DNA of 64,000 nucleotides, taken from IMG/VR virus record IMGVR_UViG_3300041409_000458; one strand, written 5' to 3'. The notes beneath the pieces are model-generated. The model ran no database searches. It worked only from the letters and a program-made list of their open reading frames with translations, and was not told the DNA's origin. Origin of the DNA: a virus. Its lineage: Duplodnaviria > Heunggongvirae > Uroviricota > Caudoviricetes. This document shows, one piece after another, positions 153 through 41,822 of the stretch; the first letter of the stretch is position 1, and each line of letters begins with the position of its first letter. The position numbers were made by a program, and so were the translations under genes.

Positions 153-548
153 ATTTTCTTGTTTTATAGTGTTAACTAATAATCTTAAATCGTTATACAT
201 GGAAATTAATCCTGCACGGTCATCAAGTAATGCAGAGAAGAAAGGTTTTTTACTTTCCCAAGGTAATGGAATACCTCCATCATTAATTGCATCAAAAGGT
301 AAATCATTTTTCTCAAGAAATTCTGCAACATACCCTAAATCTTTGTAAGCTGTCCAGCATACAAGTTTACAATCAATTGATTTCAAATCCTTCAGTAGTT
401 GCTTTACCAGAGGATATGTGTGACCAGTCCCATGATAGTCATGAATGGTATCATCAAAATCATAAGCTACAGTAATACTACCATATCTTTTATACTCAGA
501 TAATAATCTATTAAAGTTTGCTGTTGGTTCTAAATATTTATCACTCAT
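123..548 (-). CDS. HAD-superfamily phosphatase, 5'(3')-deoxyribonucleotidase-like
   Basis: 141 aa; N-terminal motif AYDFDDTIHDY matches HAD motif I DxDx(T/V); size typical of phage deoxyribonucleotidases. Confidence 0.55.
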   Translation of the reverse strand: MSDKYLEPTANFNRLLSEYKRYGSITVAYDFDDTIHDYHGTGHTYPLVKQLLKDLKSIDCKLVCWTAYKDLGYVAEFLEKNDLPFDAINDGGIPLPWESKKPFFSALLDDRAGLISMYNDLRLLVNTIKQENESTKETSNN

Positions 549-1366
549 ATTACTTTATATTGTGTTACATAATCGGTTACCGGAATACTTCCTCCAATTC
601 CAAATTCGAAAGTATTCAAATCATGATGAGAATTCGTACAGTAAATATGGTCAATTATCTTATGAAGTTCTATAAATCCTTTAGAGAAAAGTCCATGACT
701 CACATAGAGATAAACTTTCCGAGCTTTGTGTTCTCTTAGAGCTTTCCCTAATAACTCAAAAGTGTAACCTCCATCACATAAATCATCTACAATCAGACAA
801 TCTTTTCCTTCTACATCGTGAGTGAACATTAAAGTAATTTTTCCGTCCTTATCACGATGTTTCATAGCTCCCATAACTGGGAGATTTAATTTCTCTCCAA
901 ATTCAAAAACTTTCTTATAAGCTCCTGCATCTGGAGATACTAGTAATATATCATCCAATCCCGGAGAAAGCTGTTCATCACACATTTTCTGACGTATATC
1001 TGCAACAGCTTTCACAACGAACTCAAGAGAGCTTCTTTTCTTCGAGTTATTAATCAAAGCCAAGGTAACGTCACTGTGAGGGTCAAAGACTTCAACTTTC
1101 CAGAAGTTACAGCTATTAATTACATCTGTAATAATTTTTAAGTCAAAAGATTGGTCTGGACCAAATCTTCTATCACTCCTCTGTCCAAACATACAAGGAA
1201 TAAATAAATCATAATTTTCATGCTTATTCTTTCCTATTTCTCCTATTGCTGCTAAGAACATTAAATCCTCATAAGAGTTTAGTCTTTGTCTTATTACATG
1301 ACTATTGTCACCTTGTACCCATTTGGCAGATATCTGACCGTCAGGAAATCGTATCCTTTCAAACAT
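545..1366 (-). CDS. ribose-phosphate pyrophosphokinase (PRPP synthetase)-like protein; possible ADP-ribose pyrophosphate synthetase analog
   Basis: 273 aa; PRPP-binding motif DCLIVDDLCDGGYTF (type I PRTase/Prs signature); start/stop overlap with neighbours. Confidence 0.65.
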   Translation of the reverse strand: MFERIRFPDGQISAKWVQGDNSHVIRQRLNSYEDLMFLAAIGEIGKNKHENYDLFIPCMFGQRSDRRFGPDQSFDLKIITDVINSCNFWKVEVFDPHSDVTLALINNSKKRSSLEFVVKAVADIRQKMCDEQLSPGLDDILLVSPDAGAYKKVFEFGEKLNLPVMGAMKHRDKDGKITLMFTHDVEGKDCLIVDDLCDGGYTFELLGKALREHKARKVYLYVSHGLFSKGFIELHKIIDHIYCTNSHHDLNTFEFGIGGSIPVTDYVTQYKVI

Positions 1367-6423: not shown

Positions 6424-6692
6424 AGTAAGTCTTTTAATGCTTGTTTAGGCTCAAAATGATTTAAAGTTTCTGAACTATTACTACGGATTAGATATTCTAT
6501 AGCTTTTGCTTCTATATCTTCTTCATCGAGAGATATTTGTTTATGAGTTAGTATGTTTTCGAGGACTTCTGTAGCTGTATCCAGTTTATCCCAGCTACTG
6601 TTTCTTAATCGTCTTTCGACAGAATCCAGATATCTTCTGTTATTCTCTATCTCCTTCTTAAGGCTCTCTAGAGGTATTAATAAATGTGTCAT
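6420..6692 (-). CDS. hypothetical protein
   Basis: 90 aa ORF. Confidence 0.3.
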   Translation of the reverse strand: MTHLLIPLESLKKEIENNRRYLDSVERRLRNSSWDKLDTATEVLENILTHKQISLDEEDIEAKAIEYLIRSNSSETLNHFEPKQALKDLL

Positions 6693-7465
6693 TTGCTGAA
6701 TTTTGCCTCAAGAGCTTGTATGAGTTTTGACATATTACCATCATAGAAGCCTGAGCAGTTTATACAATTGATTTCCAACACTTTATACTCATCTTCAGAT
6801 AGACAAATATCTAATACGAAGGCATCTGCAGGACAATATAAATCACAAATTTGCTGAGCAAATATCTGAGCTTCCTGATTATTGTCCATGTTCAGGTAAT
6901 TAACTCTTCTACCAATTTTGTATTGACTAATTGTCACAGGTTTACCGTCAACAATCCAACAGCGTATCTCCTGTTGAATTTCCTTTAGAGGAGCTATGAG
7001 AATCTGTGTTTCTGCTGTTAAAGTTTGTTTAAGTGAGCTATCCTCAATTTCCTGACTCCATTCATTCCAGCTTTCATGGGTAAATATTTGTCCACTGAAT
7101 TGCTTCGTATCCTTTGTAGGACGAGCAAAGAACAAATGCGGATAATCTTCTGGAACTTTATCTCCAAAATTGATGACTTTACCATCAGAGTTAAGCATGT
7201 GATTGCCATAATGAGCTCCATAAACAGTCAAATCATGGTTTTCATTATACATTGAGCCCGGATACCAGTCATATTTCTTAGCTACAACAGCTAAATTTGT
7301 GGACCCGAAAGCCCAAACGTTTTTACGGTCCGTTTTGAACTCAAGTTCATCAGTAAATGGACGGAAGGGTATAACTTCATAGTCCATATTATATCTCTTC
7401 AAATGCTCTATTAGAGTATTGAAGTGGTGCTCTCTAAAGAGATTCTCTTGAATGATGTAATACAT
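6689..7465 (-). CDS. ATP-grasp fold enzyme
   Basis: 258 aa; C-terminal EIRCWIVDGKPVTISQYK ... FVLDICLSEDEYKVLEINCINCSGFYDG typical of ATP-grasp ATP-binding/catalytic lobes. Confidence 0.55.
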   Translation of the reverse strand: MYYIIQENLFREHHFNTLIEHLKRYNMDYEVIPFRPFTDELEFKTDRKNVWAFGSTNLAVVAKKYDWYPGSMYNENHDLTVYGAHYGNHMLNSDGKVINFGDKVPEDYPHLFFARPTKDTKQFSGQIFTHESWNEWSQEIEDSSLKQTLTAETQILIAPLKEIQQEIRCWIVDGKPVTISQYKIGRRVNYLNMDNNQEAQIFAQQICDLYCPADAFVLDICLSEDEYKVLEINCINCSGFYDGNMSKLIQALEAKFSK

Positions 7466-11052: not shown

Positions 11053-11679
11053 TTATAATAATAACAATCTATCAACTCCAAAAGCAAATCCGACTCCTCC
11101 TTTATATTCTCCTCCTCCACATACCTGTTTTTGAGCACCTAAGTTATTACAGCTTATTTCAAAGCCCTTTCCGTCCTTGTAGTAATCCAAACCTCTCTTT
11201 ACATCACTTCTAAGCTCAAATGAGCCCGGAATGCTCTTATAAAGGCTTACAGCTAAATCCTTCAGATATCCAAGGTAATCTTTTGTAGGGTTAAGTATTT
11301 CAACCCCTAATTGAGTAAATTGACGATATCTTCCAGATTGAGGTCGTTCTCCTCTGAAACATTCCTGAATGTAGAATAATTTGACGTCCTTTTTATGTTT
11401 GAAAGTTGTAGACGCAAGTTTTTGGACTATTGCCGTATATTCTGGAGCCAAACATATATCTCTTCCTCCTCTGTCTTGAAAATTGAACATGAGATTGTTG
11501 TTTTCCTCTCCTACTTTTCCTTTAAAGGTCTCCTGAAGCTGAATTATTGGAATCGACATTTCTGTGAATCCTTCCGTAATGAGTCTTTGAACTGATTGTT
11601 CAATAAAGTCTCGTTTTCTGTTGCCAAAGAGGATTCGGGTACCTTTATAGCAGGTTTCTTTGATTTCAATGTCTTTCAT
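11053..11679 (-). CDS. class II aminoacyl-tRNA synthetase-like core (HisRS/HisZ-like), lacks anticodon-binding domain
   Basis: YKGTRILFGNRKRDFIE ... FQDRGGRDICLAPEYTA (HisRS N-terminal pattern); motif 2 FRGERPQSGRYRQFTQLGVEI; motif 3 GGGEYKGGVGFAFGVDRL; only about 210 aa. Confidence 0.6.
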   Translation of the reverse strand: MKDIEIKETCYKGTRILFGNRKRDFIEQSVQRLITEGFTEMSIPIIQLQETFKGKVGEENNNLMFNFQDRGGRDICLAPEYTAIVQKLASTTFKHKKDVKLFYIQECFRGERPQSGRYRQFTQLGVEILNPTKDYLGYLKDLAVSLYKSIPGSFELRSDVKRGLDYYKDGKGFEISCNNLGAQKQVCGGGEYKGGVGFAFGVDRLLLL

Positions 11680-18130: not shown

Positions 18131-18183
18131 AATTCTTTCTGTTTGTTCATTTTTGAATATCTAGCTCATATTTAATCTTTTAG

Positions 18184-18255
18184 TGCAGATAAAGAGAATC
18201 GAACTCTTGACAAAAGCTTTTAGAGAGCCATGTTCTACCCCTGAACTATATCTGC
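18184..18255 (-). tRNA. suppressor-like tRNA with anticodon CUA (amber-reading)
   Basis: Hand-folded: acceptor GCAGATA/TATCTGC (7 bp), D-arm GTTC-AGGGGTA-GAAC, anticodon loop CTCTAAA (C32 U33 CUA A37 A38), T-arm AAGAG-TTCGATT-CTCTT; anticodon stem has only 3 WC + 1 GU pairs. Confidence 0.55.
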
Positions 18256-36681: not shown

Positions 36682-36750
36682 TAGAGGCACCGAGATTCGA
36701 ACTCAGATTTCTCCCTCGCAGGAGCGTCCTAGCCATTAAACTATACCTCT
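36682..36750 (-). ncRNA. tRNA-like element lacking an anticodon loop (anticodon arm replaced by a GCGA tetraloop hairpin)
   Basis: Acceptor AGAGGTA/TGCCTCT (6 WC + 1 GU), D-arm GTTT-AATGGCTA-GGAC, T-arm CTGAG-TTCGAAT-CTCGG; middle arm CTCCT-GCGA-GGGAG is a 5 bp stem (4 WC + 1 GU) with GNRA tetraloop. Confidence 0.4.
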
Positions 36751-36808: not shown

Positions 36809-37171
36809 TTATCGTTCTTCAAATGAGAACAGGAATCTATGACCTTTTGAGCCATCCGGATAAGTATTTTGAGGATATGCTACTGGCATATCAAGCACAG
36901 GCATTACTCTCATTACCATGTGGAATTTCTCCCTATCCGCTAACTCAATATCATTTAACTTACTAAACCATGTAGCAGTTACAGTCTGTGCCTGTATTGC
37001 TAATGCATTCGGTTCGTTGATTTGCTTGAGTGCAGAAACAAGGTCAGTACAATCCTTAACCTTTATTATTGGGTCAAACATTGCTTCTATTACAACTCCA
37101 TCCTTGTCTTGGACTATTGTTGCGATTCCTACTTGTATTTTTATTTTCTTCTTTTCTATTATCGCTTCCAT
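36809..37171 (-). CDS. hypothetical protein
   Basis: 120 aa ORF. Confidence 0.3.
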   Translation of the reverse strand: MEAIIEKKKIKIQVGIATIVQDKDGVVIEAMFDPIIKVKDCTDLVSALKQINEPNALAIQAQTVTATWFSKLNDIELADREKFHMVMRVMPVLDMPVAYPQNTYPDGSKGHRFLFSFEER

Positions 37172-37176
37172 TCTTT

Positions 37177-38091
37177 TTAGTTTATAAAGTTATAGGGACG
37201 GTTATCTTTGTACTGTAGCTCATATCCAGCAGCAATTGCATCTTTCTTGTGGATTGTAACAAAATCTCCATTTTCCAATAATAATGCAGCGTGCCAAGGT
37301 GAATGTTTGGCTTTACCCTGTTTTGAAGGTATTAGCTGAAATGAGTACTTTGCTCCACTGTTGACAGAAGGATGCATTGATAAACGTATGTGTTGCTTAA
37401 ACTCCTGTCTCACAAGTCCTGAATAAGCTTCATTACGTAACATCATCTCTCTTGTCAAAGCTTTTGCTGCTTTCTGCCTTTGGTTATTCGAAGGATATTC
37501 TTTGATAGCTTCCTCTTGTTGCATGAATATTGTCATACCTTTGTACAAGTAATTCACATCATTATCAAATAATATTCTTCTCTGTAATTCCTCTGGAGAG
37601 ATTCCGAATTGGGCTACTATCTTCTCCCTGATGGTAGATTTAGTCAACTTCTTGCTATAGAAGTGAGTCATATCAAACCATGTCATTGGAGCAACTTTAC
37701 TCATATCTATTGACATTTCTTCATATTGTTCAACGGTCCTGTCTTCAATACTCAGAATATCATTAAAAATGAACCCATCAGAAACAATTGTCATATTTAC
37801 TCCCGGAGGATACAAAGCACGAATGCAAGCATCAAAGTTAGCAAAGTTTTGAAAGGCTACCTGCTCAGCCATATCTGGTAGAGTTCCTAATACTTTATCA
37901 CGGTCATTCTTGCTTTTCATAGGAAAACCAAGCATAACAAATGATATTGGAAGATTCTTTGAAATAAACCAAAGAATTTTCTCGTACAGAACAGCTTTAC
38001 CAGTTTGCTCATATTGGTCATCAGCCATTGGAGCCATCTTGAATGCTTCGAAAGCACTGAGAATAGCAGTAGTTAAAAGTATGTGTTCCAT
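37177..38091 (-). CDS. Dit1/PvcA-like (isonitrile-synthase family) protein, tentative
   Basis: 304 aa; segment ISFVMLGFPMKSKNDRDKVLGTLPDMAEQVAFQNF...LYPPGVNMTIVSDGFIFNDILSIEDRTVEQYEEM resembles the conserved FPFKSPN...LPD.gE...YpPG...SDG.vf.D..gv.D core of the Dit1/PvcA family; recalled from memory. Confidence 0.35.
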   Translation of the reverse strand: MEHILLTTAILSAFEAFKMAPMADDQYEQTGKAVLYEKILWFISKNLPISFVMLGFPMKSKNDRDKVLGTLPDMAEQVAFQNFANFDACIRALYPPGVNMTIVSDGFIFNDILSIEDRTVEQYEEMSIDMSKVAPMTWFDMTHFYSKKLTKSTIREKIVAQFGISPEELQRRILFDNDVNYLYKGMTIFMQQEEAIKEYPSNNQRQKAAKALTREMMLRNEAYSGLVRQEFKQHIRLSMHPSVNSGAKYSFQLIPSKQGKAKHSPWHAALLLENGDFVTIHKKDAIAAGYELQYKDNRPYNFIN

Positions 38092-38093
38092 AT

Positions 38094-38594
38094 TTAAGCT
38101 GTTTTAGAGGTTAAATATTCAACTTTCCTTCCTTCTACCTTCATCTCATTAAATGCATGAAAAGCATCACGTAAACGTGGGCTTAAATGCAATAGAATGG
38201 TACCATTCATTGGTTCAAACAAATCCAATAAACTATAACCATTTGGAGATGCTGCTATAGCCATGGTTTCTGGTCTTACCCCATGCTCCTTGTTGGTAAT
38301 TGGTCCAGATATTATCACAAAATGGTCTCCCATAGTTGTAACATTCTCCGAACGTACCATTAAGACTTCACCAATGCGTAAATAATTGGCCTCAAATGTG
38401 GTCAATTGCTTAACATCTTCGACAGTCATATAATTCACATCTTCAAAATACTGTGTTTTGAAAGATATCACTTTGTCATGAGCAAGAGGGTGCAAATCCG
38501 TCTTTTTGTCAGTAAACTGTCTCATGATACTAACTGGGAAGTGCATAGAGCCAAGTCCTCCCAGTTTTCCGAAATGCAGGTAATGTGTATGCAT
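38094..38594 (-). CDS. hypothetical protein (possible small cupin-like metalloenzyme)
   Basis: 166 aa; His-rich N-terminus MHTHYLHFG and HPLAHD motif; beta-rich. Confidence 0.25.
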   Translation of the reverse strand: MHTHYLHFGKLGGLGSMHFPVSIMRQFTDKKTDLHPLAHDKVISFKTQYFEDVNYMTVEDVKQLTTFEANYLRIGEVLMVRSENVTTMGDHFVIISGPITNKEHGVRPETMAIAASPNGYSLLDLFEPMNGTILLHLSPRLRDAFHAFNEMKVEGRKVEYLTSKTA

Positions 38595-38647
38595 AATAGG
38601 TTTTGTTTTACGTCCTCCTACAGACGCTTTTTAGTTGAAAATAGTAT

Positions 38648-39286
38648 TTAATTCTCCTTCAGATACATTTTATATGTCTTCCCGGTCTTTTTGCTCATTT
38701 TAACTACATATCTCTTCCCTTCATAAGTTTGATACACTCTATATACTAACCCTTTTGAGTCAGTATAAGTATACTTTGTTGGTATATCAGGCTTTTTAGC
38801 AGGTGTAACAGATATGTAATTACCAAGACTGTCTCTTTTTACATTCTGAGAGAAAGCTGGAAGAGATAACATTAGTACAAGCATTACAATCAAGGTTTTA
38901 ATTTGATTAAAGTATTTCTTGTATAATTTACCTGTATTACCATTAATTCTCCATATATATGTTCCTCCATCAGGACCTTCTATTAGATTATTTGGAGTAA
39001 CAGATTCAGTGTGAGAAGAAGCAACCTTAATATGAGTCAATCTTGGAGCTGCTACATACAGCTTATTTCTCATATCAATCGCTTTTTTACGAGTATACTC
39101 GTCTTCAGTTTGTATTTTTGCCAGAGGAATAGTTAAATTCTTTTGCATGGCATATATCGTTGTAATCATAATTTCTTTTTTAGTTGTGAAGAAAAAAGAG
39201 GAGAGCATAGAAATGCTCCCCGTTACCAAAACTAACTGCTTGTGAAAACGTATTTTAAGGTAAAGGAACCTCCTCCAAAGGCTCAA
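38648..39286 (-). CDS. membrane-anchored hypothetical protein
   Basis: 212 aa; N-terminal and central hydrophobic helices. Confidence 0.35.
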   Translation of the reverse strand: MSLWRRFLYLKIRFHKQLVLVTGSISMLSSFFFTTKKEIMITTIYAMQKNLTIPLAKIQTEDEYTRKKAIDMRNKLYVAAPRLTHIKVASSHTESVTPNNLIEGPDGGTYIWRINGNTGKLYKKYFNQIKTLIVMLVLMLSLPAFSQNVKRDSLGNYISVTPAKKPDIPTKYTYTDSKGLVYRVYQTYEGKRYVVKMSKKTGKTYKMYLKEN

Positions 39287-39482
39287 GGGCTATAATTTTA
39301 TAATTACGCCATTCTCCCAGTCTCAAGTTGTGCAGAAACCAACTTAAGTCATCATGCTTATTACCAGCATCATCAACCAAACCTTTAACTTCTACATCAA
39401 GTCCACCAAAGGTCTCTTCTGATGTAACAACACCTTTGTGTTCCTTACCATCAATTTCAATTGTGATTCTTTGTTTTTTCAT
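39255..39482 (-). CDS. hypothetical protein
   Basis: 75 aa ORF. Confidence 0.3.
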   Translation of the reverse strand: MKKQRITIEIDGKEHKGVVTSEETFGGLDVEVKGLVDDAGNKHDDLSWFLHNLRLGEWRNYKIIALEPLEEVPLP

Positions 39483-39498
39483 TTTTGTATTTTTTGAT

Positions 39499-40137
39499 TT
39501 AAGATACTATTTGAAATGCTCCCTGCAAAGTTTCTTCAAGATTACTGAAGGTTGTAATATCAATAAGTCCCAAATTCTTAATTTTAGGGGGATTTTGCCT
39601 GACTGCTGCAAAAAATACATCAATGTACTCTATATCGTTATATATATATGCACTTAACAATTCAGCTATTCCCCCAGTTCTTGGTATTGCTATAACAGGT
39701 ATTCCATTCTGTAATAACATAACAGCTTCATGAAGCGTACCAATCCCACCATTCATAACAATAGCAATATCAACCGATTTAGCTAAGAATTCTCTTCTTT
39801 CAGCCATATTATTACCTGCTGAAATTACCTGTATGGTCTTCTTTGTTAGCTTAGATACAATTTGATATGCTTCAGGTAAATGGTATGGAGTATTGATTAC
39901 CTCTTTATTCTTACCTATACTTTGAGTTTGTTTGGGAATGATACATTCAAAAGTGCCTTTTGAGGGTGTAAGACCAAATCCTGTAAATACATCAAGACCT
40001 ACTCCTTCTACTCCTCCGGTGATTAATACATCACCTTTTTTCATCATCTTTGCGATGATATTACCTACTCTTATACCCATTGACGAGTCATAAGAATAGT
40101 CAGGTACCTGAGCACCAATTACTACTATTCTACTCAT
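39499..40137 (-). CDS. LOG-family (SLOG / TIGR00730-like) Rossmann-fold nucleotide-binding protein
   Basis: Start placed at MSRIVVIGAQ; motif ERREFLAKSVDIAIVMNGGIGTLHEAVMLL matches the LOG-family PGGxGTxxE signature; N-terminal VVIGA...ITGGVEGVG Rossmann glycine loop. Confidence 0.55.
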   Translation of the reverse strand: MSRIVVIGAQVPDYSYDSSMGIRVGNIIAKMMKKGDVLITGGVEGVGLDVFTGFGLTPSKGTFECIIPKQTQSIGKNKEVINTPYHLPEAYQIVSKLTKKTIQVISAGNNMAERREFLAKSVDIAIVMNGGIGTLHEAVMLLQNGIPVIAIPRTGGIAELLSAYIYNDIEYIDVFFAAVRQNPPKIKNLGLIDITTFSNLEETLQGAFQIVS

Positions 40138-40927
40138 ATAAATGGAAATTTTCAGTTGAGGTAATTTGGTTAAGGTCATTCGGATTGTCATTGTAAATAC
40201 ATGAACCCCATATTTTCAGTGCTCCAAGACTACGAACATAATCCATAGCTTTTGTCATTGAAACACCGTATTGTACGCAGTCATCTATTACTAATACACT
40301 CTTGAGGTTAATAGATTGAGCTATTTCTTCAGCCTTGAAATCAAGAACTGTAACTCTGTCATCACTTCTACGCTTAGAATAGCGTATAAACTGTAGTTCA
40401 TTACCTGTAATACCAGCCAAAGCCATGGCAGGTTCAGATGCACTTGCTGCAATACCAATTATGGTATCATAGTTAACTGAATCACCAGCTTCTTGCAGGT
40501 AATATGCTACATTTGATGCTTCTACAAGGGAGCCAAAATTACCCCGGCTTTTGTAACGATAATCATCATCGTAATTTTTGAGTATTTGCAGAGATGGTAA
40601 CAGATTAGTAACAGTTTCAATTTTACCCTGTCCTAAATAGAAGGATGAGTAGAAATCAATACCAGTTCTAACTATTCTGTCATACAACTCTTCTATTGCA
40701 GGAATTGTGTGATTCTGCAAAAGGTCATATACTCCCTGAAATATACAATGCATAGCATGTCGTGCTTCATTCAGGTCTTTTATATTCTCAGCATAAATGA
40801 GTAGGTCAGTGAAGCTGCTGAAGGACTTGTTATAATAAACACCGTCCGTTGGAATCACGACCCTTGATTTTACAAGCATAAGCTTTCTTTTTAGGCGTTT
40901 GAAAAGTAGTTTTAGTTTTATTTTCAT
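40130..40927 (-). CDS. type I phosphoribosyltransferase-domain protein
   Basis: 265 aa; PRPP-binding motif SVLVIDDCVQYGVSMTKA in C-terminal half; about 130 aa N-terminal extension of unknown function. Confidence 0.55.
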   Translation of the reverse strand: MKIKLKLLFKRLKRKLMLVKSRVVIPTDGVYYNKSFSSFTDLLIYAENIKDLNEARHAMHCIFQGVYDLLQNHTIPAIEELYDRIVRTGIDFYSSFYLGQGKIETVTNLLPSLQILKNYDDDYRYKSRGNFGSLVEASNVAYYLQEAGDSVNYDTIIGIAASASEPAMALAGITGNELQFIRYSKRRSDDRVTVLDFKAEEIAQSINLKSVLVIDDCVQYGVSMTKAMDYVRSLGALKIWGSCIYNDNPNDLNQITSTENFHLYE

Positions 40928-41546: not shown

Positions 41547-41822
41547 TCATGGTGTTAGCATTTTCTCCTCAAGCTCATCATATTCAGCTTTAGGGTATTT
41601 TAAATGGAGTATATCAAGTTGATAATCAAAGGAATCATCATTGCCTACATATTTGAGGACAGCATGAACGTACTCGCTTGGTTGAACTCCTTTGTATGGA
41701 CAAGTGGTCCATCTGCACTCATGTCCTGATTGAGGCACTTTAGAGCATCCAAATAGTAATAATACAAGTATTACTGCTATTGTAATGATATCTCCTGCTG
41801 TAAAAGTTTTTGTTATTTTCAT
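41547..41822 (-). CDS. lipoprotein
   Basis: 91 aa; signal peptide with lipobox LLLFGCS. Confidence 0.45.
   Translation of the reverse strand: MKITKTFTAGDIITIAVILVLLLFGCSKVPQSGHECRWTTCPYKGVQPSEYVHAVLKYVGNDDSFDYQLDILHLKYPKAEYDELEEKMLTP

What the first reader, a model, noticed from the sequence alone, without database searches (positions are those of the whole stretch)
37177..40927. Enzyme island: Dit1/PvcA-like + small His-rich protein + LOG-family + type I phosphoribosyltransferase
Within 3.7 kb the minus strand encodes four candidate enzymes.
- A 304 aa protein with a Dit1/PvcA-like (isonitrile synthase family) core, assigned tentatively from memory of the family motif.
- A 166 aa His-rich beta protein, possibly cupin-like.
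- A LOG-family protein with the PGGxGTxxE signature (LOG enzymes cleave N-glycosidic bonds of nucleoside monophosphates).
- A PRTase-domain protein with a 130 aa unknown N-terminal extension.

LOG/SLOG and PRTase domains are recurrent in nucleotide-based conflict systems. A phage-borne combination could synthesise or destroy a nucleotide-derived signal, for example degrading defence second messengers, or build a modified base.
Basis: inference. Interest (0 to 1): 0.6.

Follow-up and report, generated by a model that had tools for sequence, protein, structure and literature searches.

The report
Phage isonitrile-synthase cassette plus unrelated PRTase–SLOG pair
The four "enzymes" are real but belong to two independent gene modules in a large soil phage: a three-gene cassette, widespread in uncultured phages and apparently undescribed, built around a Dit1/PvcA-type isonitrile (or N-formyl) synthase with two novel partner proteins, and next to it a rare, separately inherited phosphoribosyltransferase–SLOG gene pair.

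Summary

**Dit1 cassette.** Across about 40 related loci the conserved unit is a p166-type protein, then Dit1/PvcA, then a ~115-aa protein (window 36809-37171, just outside the finding).
- The small protein follows Dit1 in 30 of 30 testable loci. The p166-type domain precedes it in 26 of 28.
- Both partners occur fused to Dit1 in some relatives.
- In most relatives the p166-type domain is the C-terminal end of a 300-370-aa protein. Its N-terminal half is a cysteine-dioxygenase-like 3-His cupin.
- The window's p166 lacks that cupin, as do 58 of the 148 family members.

**PRTase→SLOG pair.** It has an 8-nt overlap and only 4 homologues in 5.8 billion proteins. One relative (L045) has the pair without the cassette. 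Another (L034) has the cassette without the pair. A terminator-like hairpin lies between the two modules.

**Most likely function.** Dit1 joins a primary amine to C2 of ribulose-5-phosphate to give an isonitrile or formamide. Substrate and role in infection are unknown. I found no phage example in GenBank phages or in the literature searched.

The parts
40130..40927 (-). Module B, gene 1: a type I phosphoribosyltransferase-fold protein (265 aa). Residues ~39-122 form a confident helical bundle with no informative structural match. The PRTase core spans ~137-265, with the PRPP loop VLVIDDCVQYGVS and an invariant RYSKRR.
39499..40137 (-). Module B, gene 2: a SLOG-superfamily protein (212 aa from Met at 40137; the ORF extends to 40191). 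It overlaps the PRTase stop by 8 nt and keeps the LOG-type motif MAERRE...NGGIGTLHE.
   Evidence: Pfam LDcluster4 E 5e-10, 39.6 bits against 26.3; Lysine_decarbox 24.8 bits, below the 27-bit cut-off. NCBIfam TIGR00725 E 3.9e-11, below cut-off. Best PDB matches are 1rcu (TM1055) and TRPM2 SLOG domains. The same PRTase→SLOG overlap is seen in L045 (53% id) and L046 (73% id).
39255..39482 (-). A 75-aa ORF of unknown function, downstream of SLOG and upstream of the terminator-like hairpin. It is probably co-transcribed with module B. It was not found in L045-L047.
   Evidence: ORF list and gene call. No Pfam or PHROG hit. tblastn negative in L045-L047.
39200..39221 (-). An intrinsic-terminator-like hairpin (9-bp stem with 5 G-C pairs, 4-nt loop, then TCTTTTTTCT) between module B and the Dit1 unit.
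   Evidence: Consensus scan: 7 terminator-like sites against 2.6 ± 1.6 in shuffles, and this one has the longest stem. This is a prediction only.
38648..39169 (-). A small membrane-anchored or secreted protein, called as 173 aa. The true start is probably the internal 'MLVLMLSLPAFSQ', giving about 80-90 aa. It sits upstream of the Dit1 cassette in the window's clade only and is not part of the conserved cassette.
   Evidence: phrog_16207 E 1.4e-7 on the C-terminal 80 aa. Homologues lie upstream of p166 in L034 and nearby in L024.
38094..38594 (-). Module A, gene 1 (p166): the cupin-less short form of the Dit1 partner. Residues ~45-160 form the conserved 'C-domain' (motif GxVxLVRSxNVPxxGDH...KEHGxRPQ). 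The N-terminal ~45 residues are a degenerate, disordered remnant of the last cupin strands. There is a 2-nt gap to Dit1.
37177..38091 (-). Module A, gene 2: a Dit1/PvcA-family enzyme (304 aa), the isonitrile synthase / N-formyl-tyrosine synthase family. It belongs to a phage-specific clade.
   Evidence: Pfam DIT1_PvcA E 7.3e-62, profile positions 4-271 of 273. PDB 9dhm/9dh4 E 2e-33 and PvcA 3e59 E 8e-27 over residues 27-301. NCBIfam PvcA equivalog scores 126 bits, far below the 600-bit cut-off. 303 homologues, the best 120 at ≥51% identity. 61 invariant columns across 24 sequences.
36809..37171 (-). Module A, gene 3 (p120): a small conserved partner of unknown fold with the motif ...WFxKxNEIELADR... 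and invariant G15, G25, E76, D79. There is a 5-nt gap after Dit1.
   Evidence: Directly downstream of Dit1 in 30 of 30 loci. Alignment A3. Fused in frame to Dit1 in L015. No Pfam, PHROG or PDB relative.
36682..36750 (-). A tRNA-like gene with an abnormally short anticodon loop, immediately downstream of the cassette. It is probably unrelated to the cassette's function.
   Evidence: ARAGORN calls 'tRNA-???'. Rfam tRNA 44.3 bits against a gathering score of 29, with 6 nt where the model has 9 in the anticodon-loop region.

Best explanation
The region holds two functionally independent accessory modules in the early/accessory arm of a large tailed phage from soil-type metagenomes (longest contig carrying these proteins is about 170 kb).

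**Module A (38594-36809, minus strand)** is a self-contained three-gene cassette: p166, Dit1/PvcA and p120.
- Dit1/PvcA is the catalytic subunit. By homology with PvcA/IsnA and yeast Dit1, it condenses a primary amine with the C2 carbonyl of ribulose-5-phosphate. In all characterised relatives that amine is the alpha-amino group of an aromatic amino acid. The nitrogen becomes an isonitrile, or a formamide after hydration or in a Dit1-like manner.
- The two small proteins are obligate partners, probably forming a complex with Dit1.
- In most related phages the p166-type domain is the C-terminal part of a protein whose N-terminal half is a cysteine-dioxygenase-like 3-His Fe(II) cupin. That cupin would add an O2-dependent tailoring step, taking the place of the Fe/alpha-ketoglutarate oxygenase PvcB/IsnB in bacterial pathways.
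- The window's phage and its clade have lost the cupin, so they should make the un-oxidised product.

**Module B (40927-39499)** is a translationally coupled PRTase→SLOG pair. It most plausibly acts on PRPP and a ribonucleotide: the PRTase makes or binds a phosphoribosyl compound, and the LOG-like SLOG protein cleaves or senses an N-glycosidic nucleotide.

**Shown:** gene presence, family membership, synteny statistics, fusions, and independent inheritance of the two modules.
**Inferred:** the chemistry, complex formation, the cupin's role, and every biological role in infection.
For: **Family membership of Dit1**
- Pfam E 7e-62 over the full profile length.
- Alignment over residues 27-301 to solved isonitrile synthases at E 2e-33, with the shared motifs FPxKSxN..KVLGxxPDxAE, YPPG...SDG.xFxD, IRLSxHP and PWH retained.
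- These same positions are invariant across 24 phage homologues.
- PvcA uses tyrosine plus ribulose-5-phosphate, while Dit1 gives formyl-tyrosine (PMC7345447).

**Cassette integrity**
- p120 lies downstream of Dit1 in 30 of 30 loci. The C-domain lies upstream in 26 of 28.
- Intergenic gaps are 2 and 5 nt.
- Rosetta-stone fusions exist: C-domain+Dit1 in P0027, P0154 and P0258, and Dit1+p120 in L015.
- No other Pfam family recurs in more than 2 of 140 flanking ORFs.

**Cupin**
- The long-form profile hits only cysteine dioxygenase in the PDB. HGH aligns on CDO His86/His88, HNF on His140 and SLH on Ser153/His155.
- Pfam CDO_I or PCO_ADO matches 6 of 19 members.

**Short form is a stable variant**
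- Orthologues share 50-58% identity.
- 58 of 148 family members are stand-alone short forms.

**Independence of the two modules**
- L034 has the cassette but lacks the ~2.7-kb PRTase-SLOG block between the same flanking genes.
- L045 has PRTase-SLOG but no Dit1.
- A terminator-like hairpin lies at 39221-39200.

**Module B**
- The 8-nt overlap is conserved in L045, and L046 and L047 show the same overlapping gene order.
- The SLOG protein retains the LOG-type Arg and Glu motif (sequence; Pfam).
Against: - No chemistry was tested, and the amine substrate is unknown.
- The phage clade is only about 30% identical to characterised enzymes and scores far below the PvcA equivalog cut-off. Its specificity, and even its product class, could differ.
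- I could not find a published list of catalytic residues for the family, so 'active site intact' rests on motif conservation only.
- The cupin assignment is weak statistically (PDB E 0.014-0.1; Pfam 23 bits, exactly at the cut-off).
- The p166 model is mediocre (pLDDT 62) and gave no fold match. p120 has no detectable relatives. So 'accessory subunits' is an inference from synteny and fusions. They could instead be substrates, carriers, immunity proteins or regulators.
- The L015 fusion comes from a single metagenomic contig and could be an assembly or deletion artefact.
- The terminator is a consensus prediction.
- For module B there is no evidence of activity. PRTase-fold proteins can be regulators (PurR, PyrR), and SLOG domains can be non-catalytic sensors.
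Confidence: 0.6

Rival explanations
1. All four enzymes form one pathway that makes or destroys a nucleotide-derived molecule. For example, the PRTase builds a nucleotide from PRPP and a base, LOG/SLOG releases ribose-5-phosphate or a modified base, and Dit1 uses the resulting pentose phosphate (after isomerisation to ribulose-5-phosphate) or modifies the base's amino group.
For: - The genes are close together on one strand.
- All three enzyme families handle pentose-phosphate chemistry: PRPP, NMP→R5P and Ru5P. This is established family knowledge, supported by PMC7345447 and PMC9503650.
- The phage also encodes a PRPP-synthetase-like protein at 545-1366.
Against: - No other Dit1 locus (about 40, of which 17 have ≥5 kb of flank) carries SLOG or PRTase.
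- The close relative L034 lacks the PRTase-SLOG block, and L045 has it without Dit1.
- A terminator-like hairpin and two unrelated small ORFs separate the modules.
- Host metabolism already supplies ribulose-5-phosphate.
Confidence: 0.05
2. Module A modifies a macromolecule and does not make a free small molecule. Dit1 would convert an amino group on a protein (an N-terminus or lysine, possibly on p120 or p166 themselves), on a tRNA-bound amino acid, or on an amine-bearing hypermodified DNA base into an isonitrile or formamide. The small partners would act as substrate, carrier or targeting subunits.
For: - Two small, always-present partner proteins are unusual for known isonitrile pathways, which need only IsnA/PvcA plus an oxygenase. 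They occur fused to Dit1.
- The cupin's nearest relatives include PCO/ADO enzymes, which oxidise protein N-terminal cysteines.
- The cassette sits in a phage replication/early arm rich in tRNAs and RNA- or nucleotide-handling genes.
Against: - All characterised family members act on free aromatic amino acids (PMC7345447; names of PDB entries).
- p120 has no conserved Cys at position 2, and no invariant Lys or Tyr is evident.
- No DNA-hypermodification genes were detected near the cassette in 16 loci.
Confidence: 0.15
3. Module B is a ShosTA-like toxin-antitoxin or superinfection-exclusion pair carried by the phage. The PRTase would be a PRPP-consuming toxin, neutralised by the SLOG-superfamily partner.
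For: - PADLOC ShosT HMM hit, E 1.7e-4.
- ShosT is an N-domain+PRTase toxin followed by a DprA-like antitoxin, and DprA belongs to the SLOG superfamily (PMC11961720; PMC7824862).
- The gene order is the same, with overlapping genes.
- The distribution is patchy and indel-like, as for mobile defence or TA modules.
Against: - ShosT's N-domain is a Rossmann-fold pyrophosphatase. Here it is a helical bundle.
- The SLOG partner is LDcluster4/TIGR00725-like with a LOG-type catalytic motif, not DprA-like.
- No PADLOC hit for the SLOG protein.
Confidence: 0.2
4. Module B is a sensor or regulator and not an enzyme pair. The PRTase-fold domain would bind PRPP or a nucleotide as an effector, as in PurR, PyrR or GfcR-type regulators, with the helical N-domain as the output. 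The SLOG protein would sense or sequester a host immune nucleotide such as an ADPR-derived signal.
For: - The best NCBIfam hit is the 'orotate PRTase-like protein' subfamily PRK02277.
- The PRPP loop deviates from the canonical TG-x-T (DDCVQYGVS).
Against: - The helical N-domain has no detectable HTH or DNA-binding match.
- The acidic DD pair and the invariant RYSKRR and SASEP loops are conserved, as expected for a catalytic PRPP site.
- The SLOG protein keeps the LOG-type Arg and Glu.
Confidence: 0.15

Closest known systems
Bacterial isonitrile synthase pairs PvcA/PvcB and IsnA/IsnB (paerucumarin and rhabduscin pathways; PDB 3E59, 9DH4/9DHM)
   Same: Same enzyme family (PF05141) with a full-length alignment and shared motifs. 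An adjacent, tightly linked oxygenase-type partner is present in most phage relatives. The expected chemistry is amine plus ribulose-5-phosphate giving an isonitrile.
   Different: - Only about 30% identity, and far below the PvcA equivalog threshold.
- The partner oxygenase is not a TauD-type Fe/alpha-ketoglutarate enzyme. It is a CDO-like 3-His cupin fused to a novel ~110-aa domain.
- The window's phage has lost the cupin altogether.
- A third obligatory small protein (p120) has no counterpart.
- The cassette is encoded by lytic-type phages and is essentially absent from bacterial genomes: 2 loci among 185,579 species representatives, when scanned with peptide patterns taken from the phage clade.
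Yeast Dit1 (with the P450 Dit2) in spore-wall dityrosine synthesis
   Same: Same Pfam family. It shows that family members can give an N-formyl product in place of an isonitrile, so either outcome is possible for the phage enzyme.
   Different: It is eukaryotic and paired with a P450. It has no cupin, C-domain or p120 partners. Its biological role in the spore wall is irrelevant to phages.
Cysteine dioxygenase and other thiol dioxygenase cupins (CDO, MDO, PCO/ADO)
   Same: The N-half of the long-form partner aligns to the CDO cupin, with the three iron-binding His and the S-x-H motif in register.
   Different: The similarity is marginal statistically. The protein carries an extra N-terminal ~100 aa and the C-domain. 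Its context with an isonitrile synthase is unprecedented as far as I could find. The window's p166 lacks this domain entirely.
ShosTA (PRTase-domain toxin plus DprA-like antitoxin) and other PRTase/SLOG nucleotide-centred conflict systems
   Same: A PRTase-fold protein with an extra N-terminal domain is followed by an overlapping gene for a SLOG-superfamily protein. Distribution is patchy and mobile.
   Different: The N-domain is helical and not a Rossmann pyrophosphatase. The partner is LOG-like/LDcluster4 and not DprA-like. No significant sequence or fold match to ShosT or ShosA. The pair is phage-encoded.
LOG family cytokinin-activating enzymes / TIGR00725 proteins (e.g. TM1055, PDB 1RCU)
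   Same: SLOG Rossmannoid fold, with the motif M-x-E-R-R ... GG-x-GT-x-x-E in the same register as LOG's catalytic Arg and Glu.
   Different: It falls below the curated cut-offs of PF03641, TIGR00730 and TIGR00725. The first motif residue is Asn, not Pro. The best Pfam family is SLOG cluster 4.

Membership tests
DIT1_PvcA (PF05141) isonitrile / N-formyl-tyrosine synthase family | Full-length match to the family profile above the curated threshold | tested here: met
   209.8 bits against a cut-off of 26.4, profile positions 4-271 of 273, E 7.3e-62.
DIT1_PvcA (PF05141) isonitrile / N-formyl-tyrosine synthase family | Collinear similarity to experimentally solved isonitrile synthases, with the family's conserved motifs retained | tested here: met
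   9dhm/9dh4 E 2e-33 and PvcA 3e59 E 8e-27 over residues 27-301. FPxKSxN..KVLGxxPDxAE, YPPG..SDG, IRLSxHP and PWH are conserved and invariant in 24 phage homologues.
DIT1_PvcA (PF05141) isonitrile / N-formyl-tyrosine synthase family | Orthology to L-tyrosine isonitrile synthase PvcA (NCBIfam equivalog NF045653) | tested here: not met
   126.4 bits against a cut-off of 600. It is a family member but not a PvcA orthologue, so substrate specificity cannot be transferred.
DIT1_PvcA (PF05141) isonitrile / N-formyl-tyrosine synthase family | Adjacent Fe(II)/alpha-ketoglutarate oxygenase partner (PvcB/IsnB type), as in canonical bacterial clusters | tested here: not met
   No TauD-type protein is present in the window or in the 16 flanks surveyed. 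Relatives carry a CDO-like cupin instead, and the window has none.
DIT1_PvcA (PF05141) isonitrile / N-formyl-tyrosine synthase family | Catalysis: amine plus ribulose-5-phosphate gives an isonitrile or formamide | not testable with these tools
   Needs biochemistry. No published catalytic-residue list was found in the library searched.
Cysteine dioxygenase-type cupin (PF05995), as the identity of p166 | Cupin metal site: H-x-H ... H (3-His) and the S-x-H motif | tested here: not met
   Window p166 and its orthologues lack HGH and PEHTRDGRDN, and 0 of 58 short forms match the HxH motif. Long-form relatives do carry them, so p166 is a cupin-less derivative.
LOG family (PF03641 / TIGR00730) | Score above the curated family thresholds | tested here: not met
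   PF03641 24.8 bits, below 27. TIGR00730 17.7 bits, below 96.
LOG family (PF03641 / TIGR00730) | Catalytic motif PGGxGTxxE with an upstream Arg (MxxRK) | tested here: inconclusive
   The sequence reads MAERRE...NGGIGTLHE. Arg and Glu are present in register, but Pro is replaced by Asn. Activity is untested.
SLOG superfamily, cluster 4 (PF18306) | Match above the curated threshold | tested here: met
   39.6 bits against 26.3, E 5e-10. The same family was precomputed for the L045 orthologue.
Type I phosphoribosyltransferase fold (PF00156) | Profile match above threshold and a PRTase core fold | tested here: met
Type I phosphoribosyltransferase fold (PF00156) | Canonical PRPP-binding loop (acidic pair followed by T/S-T/S-G-x-T) | tested here: inconclusive
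   VLVIDDCVQYGVS: the DD pair and the Gly are present, but Q-Y replaces the usual small hydroxyl residues. The loop is conserved in 4 orthologues.
ShosTA defence / toxin-antitoxin system | ShosT architecture: an N-terminal Rossmann-fold pyrophosphatase plus a C-terminal PRTase | tested here: not met
   The N-terminal domain is predicted at pLDDT above 90 to be a helical bundle. ShosT's architecture is taken from PMC11961720. ShosT is absent from sequence hits and from the listed fold hits. Only a weak partial PADLOC hit was found, E 1.7e-4.
ShosTA defence / toxin-antitoxin system | ShosA: a DprA-like partner | tested here: not met
   The partner is LDcluster4/TIGR00725-like. It has no DprA or ShosA hit in Pfam, PADLOC or PDB.

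The most novel reading that the evidence does not exclude
Hundreds of uncultured, mostly soil-derived large phages would carry a dedicated three-component machine that makes an isonitrile-bearing (or N-formyl) metabolite inside the infected cell. It consists of a Dit1/PvcA-type synthase, a new ~110-aa domain usually fused to a CDO-like iron cupin, and a new ~115-aa protein. This would be the first virus-encoded isonitrile pathway. It would also be a new isonitrile-tailoring logic, with a cosubstrate-free 3-His cupin in place of an alpha-ketoglutarate oxygenase. The product could be a metal- or haem-binding compound used to manipulate host metabolism or disarm a host defence.
Probability: 0.4. 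Interest if true: 0.8.

Novelty: new variant of a known kind. Interest (0 to 1): 0.62.

Why it matters
Isonitrile natural products are potent metal- and haem-binding compounds. They are known from bacteria, fungi and sponges, and I found no report of one from a virus.

A phage-restricted clade of the synthase points to a specific, selected role during infection and not to a stray host gene:
- It is conserved at more than 50% identity across 120+ protein clusters, on contigs of 40-175 kb.
- It is always flanked by the same two uncharacterised partners.
- It is almost absent from bacterial genomes.

The cassette offers three things:
- A compact three-gene system that can be tested directly by heterologous expression.
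- Two new protein domains with a strong functional anchor.
- A possible new oxygenase partner for isonitrile chemistry.

It is also a caution for 'island' reasoning. Adjacent enzymes in phage accessory regions can be independently inherited modules, as shown here by a clean double dissociation.

The PRTase-SLOG pair is rarer. It adds a phage-borne example to the PRTase/SLOG theme seen in nucleotide-centred conflict systems.

Tried and rejected
- **GenBank phages.** Megablast of the region, and tblastn of Dit1, SLOG and PRTase, gave no match. No cultured relative was identified.
- **IMG/VR scans with SLOG or PRTase alone.** Nothing found.
- **Word-indexed homologue search with p166.** It returned only short forms, so long forms could not be passed to structure prediction. 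The long-form cupin was therefore analysed by sequence profile only.
- **p120.** No Pfam, PHROG, NCBIfam, PADLOC or PDB-profile hit.
- **ShosTA membership.** Considered after a weak PADLOC hit and rejected on architecture and the lack of sequence or fold similarity.
- **L045 375-aa protein.** The idea that this protein downstream of PRTase-SLOG is a divergent Dit1 got only Pfam E 0.012 and hhalign probability 24%. Not accepted.
- **Larger pathway around the cassette.** No family recurs in the flanks.
- **Catalytic residues of the family.** Literature searches for these and for the 9DH4/9DHM structures found nothing usable. One search for the original SLOG classification paper returned only noise.
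- **Sigma-70 promoter scan.** Not enriched over shuffles, 23 against 22.5, so no promoter claims are made.

Full report
**1. What is there**

The window is part of a large tailed phage.
- It encodes a terminase, portal and major head protein on the plus strand beyond ~44.5 kb, and a DNA polymerase plus seven tRNA genes on the minus strand.
- GC skew flips at ~44.5 kb.
- The longest contig carrying the same proteins is 169,883 bp.
- No GenBank phage matches the region at DNA or protein level.

Domain searches confirm three of the four calls:

| Coordinates (minus strand) | Assignment | Evidence |
|---|---|---|
| 37177-38091 | DIT1_PvcA | E 7.3e-62, full profile length |
| 39499-40191 | SLOG cluster 4 | E 5e-10; the LOG family proper scores just below threshold |
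| 40130-40927 | Type I PRTase domain, residues 150-239, behind a ~130-aa extension | E 1.5e-9 |
| 38094-38594 | No family hit | |

**2. The conserved unit is not the one proposed**

I collected loci encoding relatives of the Dit1-like protein from several sources:
- IMG/VR.
- JGI and ENA metagenomes.
- Logan and JGI assemblies.
- GTDB species genomes.

I then searched them with the window's proteins by tblastn and with profile HMMs. The HMM results over de-duplicated loci were:
- A homologue of the 120-aa protein at window 36809-37171 lies immediately downstream of Dit1 in 30 of 30 loci with enough sequence. In one locus a methyltransferase-like gene intervenes.
- A homologue of the C-terminal ~110 residues of p166 lies immediately upstream in 26 of 28.
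- SLOG and PRTase were found in none of these loci except the window's own genome.

In the window the three cassette genes are separated by 2 and 5 nt.

Gene fusions also tie the partners to Dit1:
- P0027 (424 aa, on a 48-kb phage contig) has the p166-type domain fused in front of Dit1. So do P0154 and P0258.
- In L015 the Dit1 and p120 homologues form one 398-aa ORF.

I scanned 140 ORFs flanking the cassette in 16 loci. No Pfam family occurred more than twice. The cassette is therefore self-contained and sits in otherwise variable accessory regions.

**3. What p166 is**

In most relatives the upstream gene is 300-370 aa long. Alignment shows that p166 corresponds only to its C-terminal part.

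The N-terminal half of the long forms carries a cupin signature: W-G-x-G-x-x-S-P-V-H-G-H-x-x-G-Y-x-H-E-E, then H-N-F, then S-L-H-Y-L-P-E-H-T-R-D-G-R-D-N.
- A profile of the family hits only cysteine dioxygenase in the PDB (E 0.014-0.1). The three iron-ligand histidines and the S-x-H motif are in register.
- Pfam CDO_I or PCO_ADO is hit by 6 of 19 members, at or near threshold.
- This assignment is weak statistically but internally consistent.

The window's p166 and its orthologues (147-168 aa, 50-58% identity) lack these motifs.

An exhaustive HMMER search of 1.84 billion representative proteins found only 148 members of the domain family:

| Architecture | Count |
|---|---|
| Long forms, domain at the C-terminus | 80 |
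| Stand-alone short forms, none with the HxH motif | 58 |
| Fused to Dit1 | 3 |
| Duplicated domain | 2 |

So the cupin-less arrangement in the window is a common, stable variant and not a pseudogene.

**4. The Dit1-like enzyme**

- It aligns over residues 27-301 with solved L-Tyr/L-Trp isonitrile synthases (9DHM/9DH4, E 2e-33) and with PvcA (3E59, E 8e-27). All strongly conserved family motifs are retained.
- Those same positions are invariant among 24 phage homologues.
- It is not a PvcA orthologue: 126 bits against an equivalog cut-off of 600.
- The phage clade is large, with 303 hits at E≤1e-5. The best 120 are ≥51% identical and ~300 aa long, many on contigs of 40-170 kb. Samples come from soil, rhizosphere and activated sludge.
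- It is nearly absent from bacterial genomes. A scan of 185,579 species representatives, using peptide patterns from the phage clade, found two loci. One is a MAG contig that also carries the cupin partner. The other is a distant Dependentiae paralogue pair.
- Characterised family members convert the amino group of Tyr or Trp into an isonitrile using ribulose-5-phosphate (PvcA), or give N-formyl-tyrosine (Dit1) (PMC7345447).
- I found no paper describing a virus-encoded member.

**5. The PRTase-SLOG pair is a separate module**

- The PRTase has only three homologues besides itself in 5.8 billion clustered proteins.
- It is followed by an overlapping SLOG gene in L045 (62% and 53% identity, same 8-nt overlap) and in L046 (78% and 73%). 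In L047 an overlapping ORF with a SLOG-like start follows it, but the contig ends there and the ORF was too short for a significant match.
- L045 is a related phage sharing flanking genes with the window. It has no Dit1 cassette in 19.7 kb.
- Conversely L034, whose Dit1 is 74% identical to the window's, has the homologue of window ORF 41547-41822 followed within ~155 nt by the small secreted protein, then p166 and Dit1. The window has ~2.7 kb between those anchors, carrying p89, PRTase, SLOG and p75.
- A strong terminator-like hairpin at 39221-39200 separates the two modules.

On structure and sequence:
- A weak PADLOC hit to ShosT prompted a comparison with ShosTA, which is a PRTase toxin with an N-terminal pyrophosphatase plus a DprA-like antitoxin (PMC11961720). 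Architecture, sequence and fold searches do not support membership.
- The SLOG protein keeps the LOG-type Arg and Glu motif (MAERRE...NGGIGTLHE). It is closest to TIGR00725/TM1055-like proteins and SLOG cluster 4.
- Viral SLOG domains are known, but LOG-like ones are reported to be uncommon in phages (PMC9503650).

**6. Most likely mechanism**

*Module A.* Dit1 condenses a primary amine with C2 of ribulose-5-phosphate to give an isonitrile or formamide. p166 and p120 act as obligate partners. In most relatives a CDO-like Fe(II) cupin adds an O2-dependent step, and this step is missing in the window's clade. Family membership, synteny, fusions and independence are shown. Chemistry, complex formation and biological role are inferred. 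The substrate is unknown, and a macromolecular substrate is a serious rival.

*Module B.* A PRPP- or nucleotide-handling pair whose role cannot be decided here. Candidates are an enzyme couple, a ShosTA-like toxin-antitoxin pair, or a sensor.

**7. Verdict**

- The domain calls are largely right.
- The 'four-enzyme island acting on a nucleotide signal' is not supported.
- What emerges is a phage-specific Dit1/PvcA cassette with two new partner domains, and an unexpected oxygenase partner in relatives. It appears undescribed. I class it as a new variant of a known kind, of moderately high interest because it is compact, widespread and directly testable.

Noticed in passing
window 18183-18255 (-): A suppressor-type tRNA with anticodon CTA (reads UAG), called 'Pyl' by ARAGORN, among seven tRNA genes on the minus strand. 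The large structural and replication ORFs are intact under the standard code, so there is no sign of genome-wide TAG recoding.
   Followed up: partly
window 36682-36750 (-): A tRNA-like gene directly downstream of the cassette. It passes the Rfam tRNA threshold (44.3 against 29 bits) but has a shortened anticodon loop, and ARAGORN could not assign an anticodon.
   Followed up: partly
window 545-1366 (-): A PRPP-synthetase-like protein (273 aa; Pribosyltran, Pribosyl_synth and Pribosyltran_N hits) about 39 kb from the PRTase-SLOG pair. It could supply PRPP or be an ADPR-PP-synthetase-type enzyme. No link to the finding was tested.
   Followed up: no
window 6689-7465 (-), 11053-11679 (-), and unlocated ORFs: The replication arm also encodes an R2K-clade ATP-grasp protein, a truncated HisRS-like protein (208 aa), and proteins with NADAR, cREC_REC and PTH2 domains. 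The last three were detected in a pooled scan and not located. This suggests a rich repertoire of nucleotide, ADPR or RNA-repair functions.
   Followed up: partly
L045 11752-12879: In the relative that has PRTase-SLOG but no Dit1 cassette, the next large gene (375 aa) shows a faint resemblance to the N-terminal third of DIT1_PvcA (Pfam E 0.012; hhalign probability 24%). Not significant, but curious given its position.
   Followed up: partly
L002 9435-9962 and 10888-11631: One relative has two extra genes inserted in the cassette: a 175-aa unknown between the cupin protein and Dit1, and a 247-aa protein with weak SAM-methyltransferase similarity and a GAGAGFF motif between Dit1 and p120. These may be tailoring steps.
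   Followed up: no
L018 1732-2352; L032 398-1114; L036 604-1617; P0142, P0143: Some relatives carry a second copy of the p166-type C-domain, either as an extra small gene after the long cupin protein or duplicated within one 458-474-aa protein.
   Followed up: no
L051 4777-6771 (Candidatus Dependentiae MAG, 1.2-Mb contig): Two tandem, distant (25-28% identity) Dit1/PvcA paralogues in a bacterial genome, without the phage-type partners.
   Followed up: no
P0172 (2307 aa) and P0273 (756 aa): Two long proteins match a ~30-residue segment of the p166 C-domain (profile positions ~62-113) 10-11 times. This is either a repeat protein built from the same beta-hairpin unit or a low-complexity artefact.
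   Followed up: no
window 38648-39286 (-): The mechanical 212-aa ORF with a TTG start runs across the terminator-like hairpin. The real gene is probably a ~85-aa signal-peptide or membrane-anchored protein (phrog_16207), as in L034 1311-1640.
   Followed up: partly
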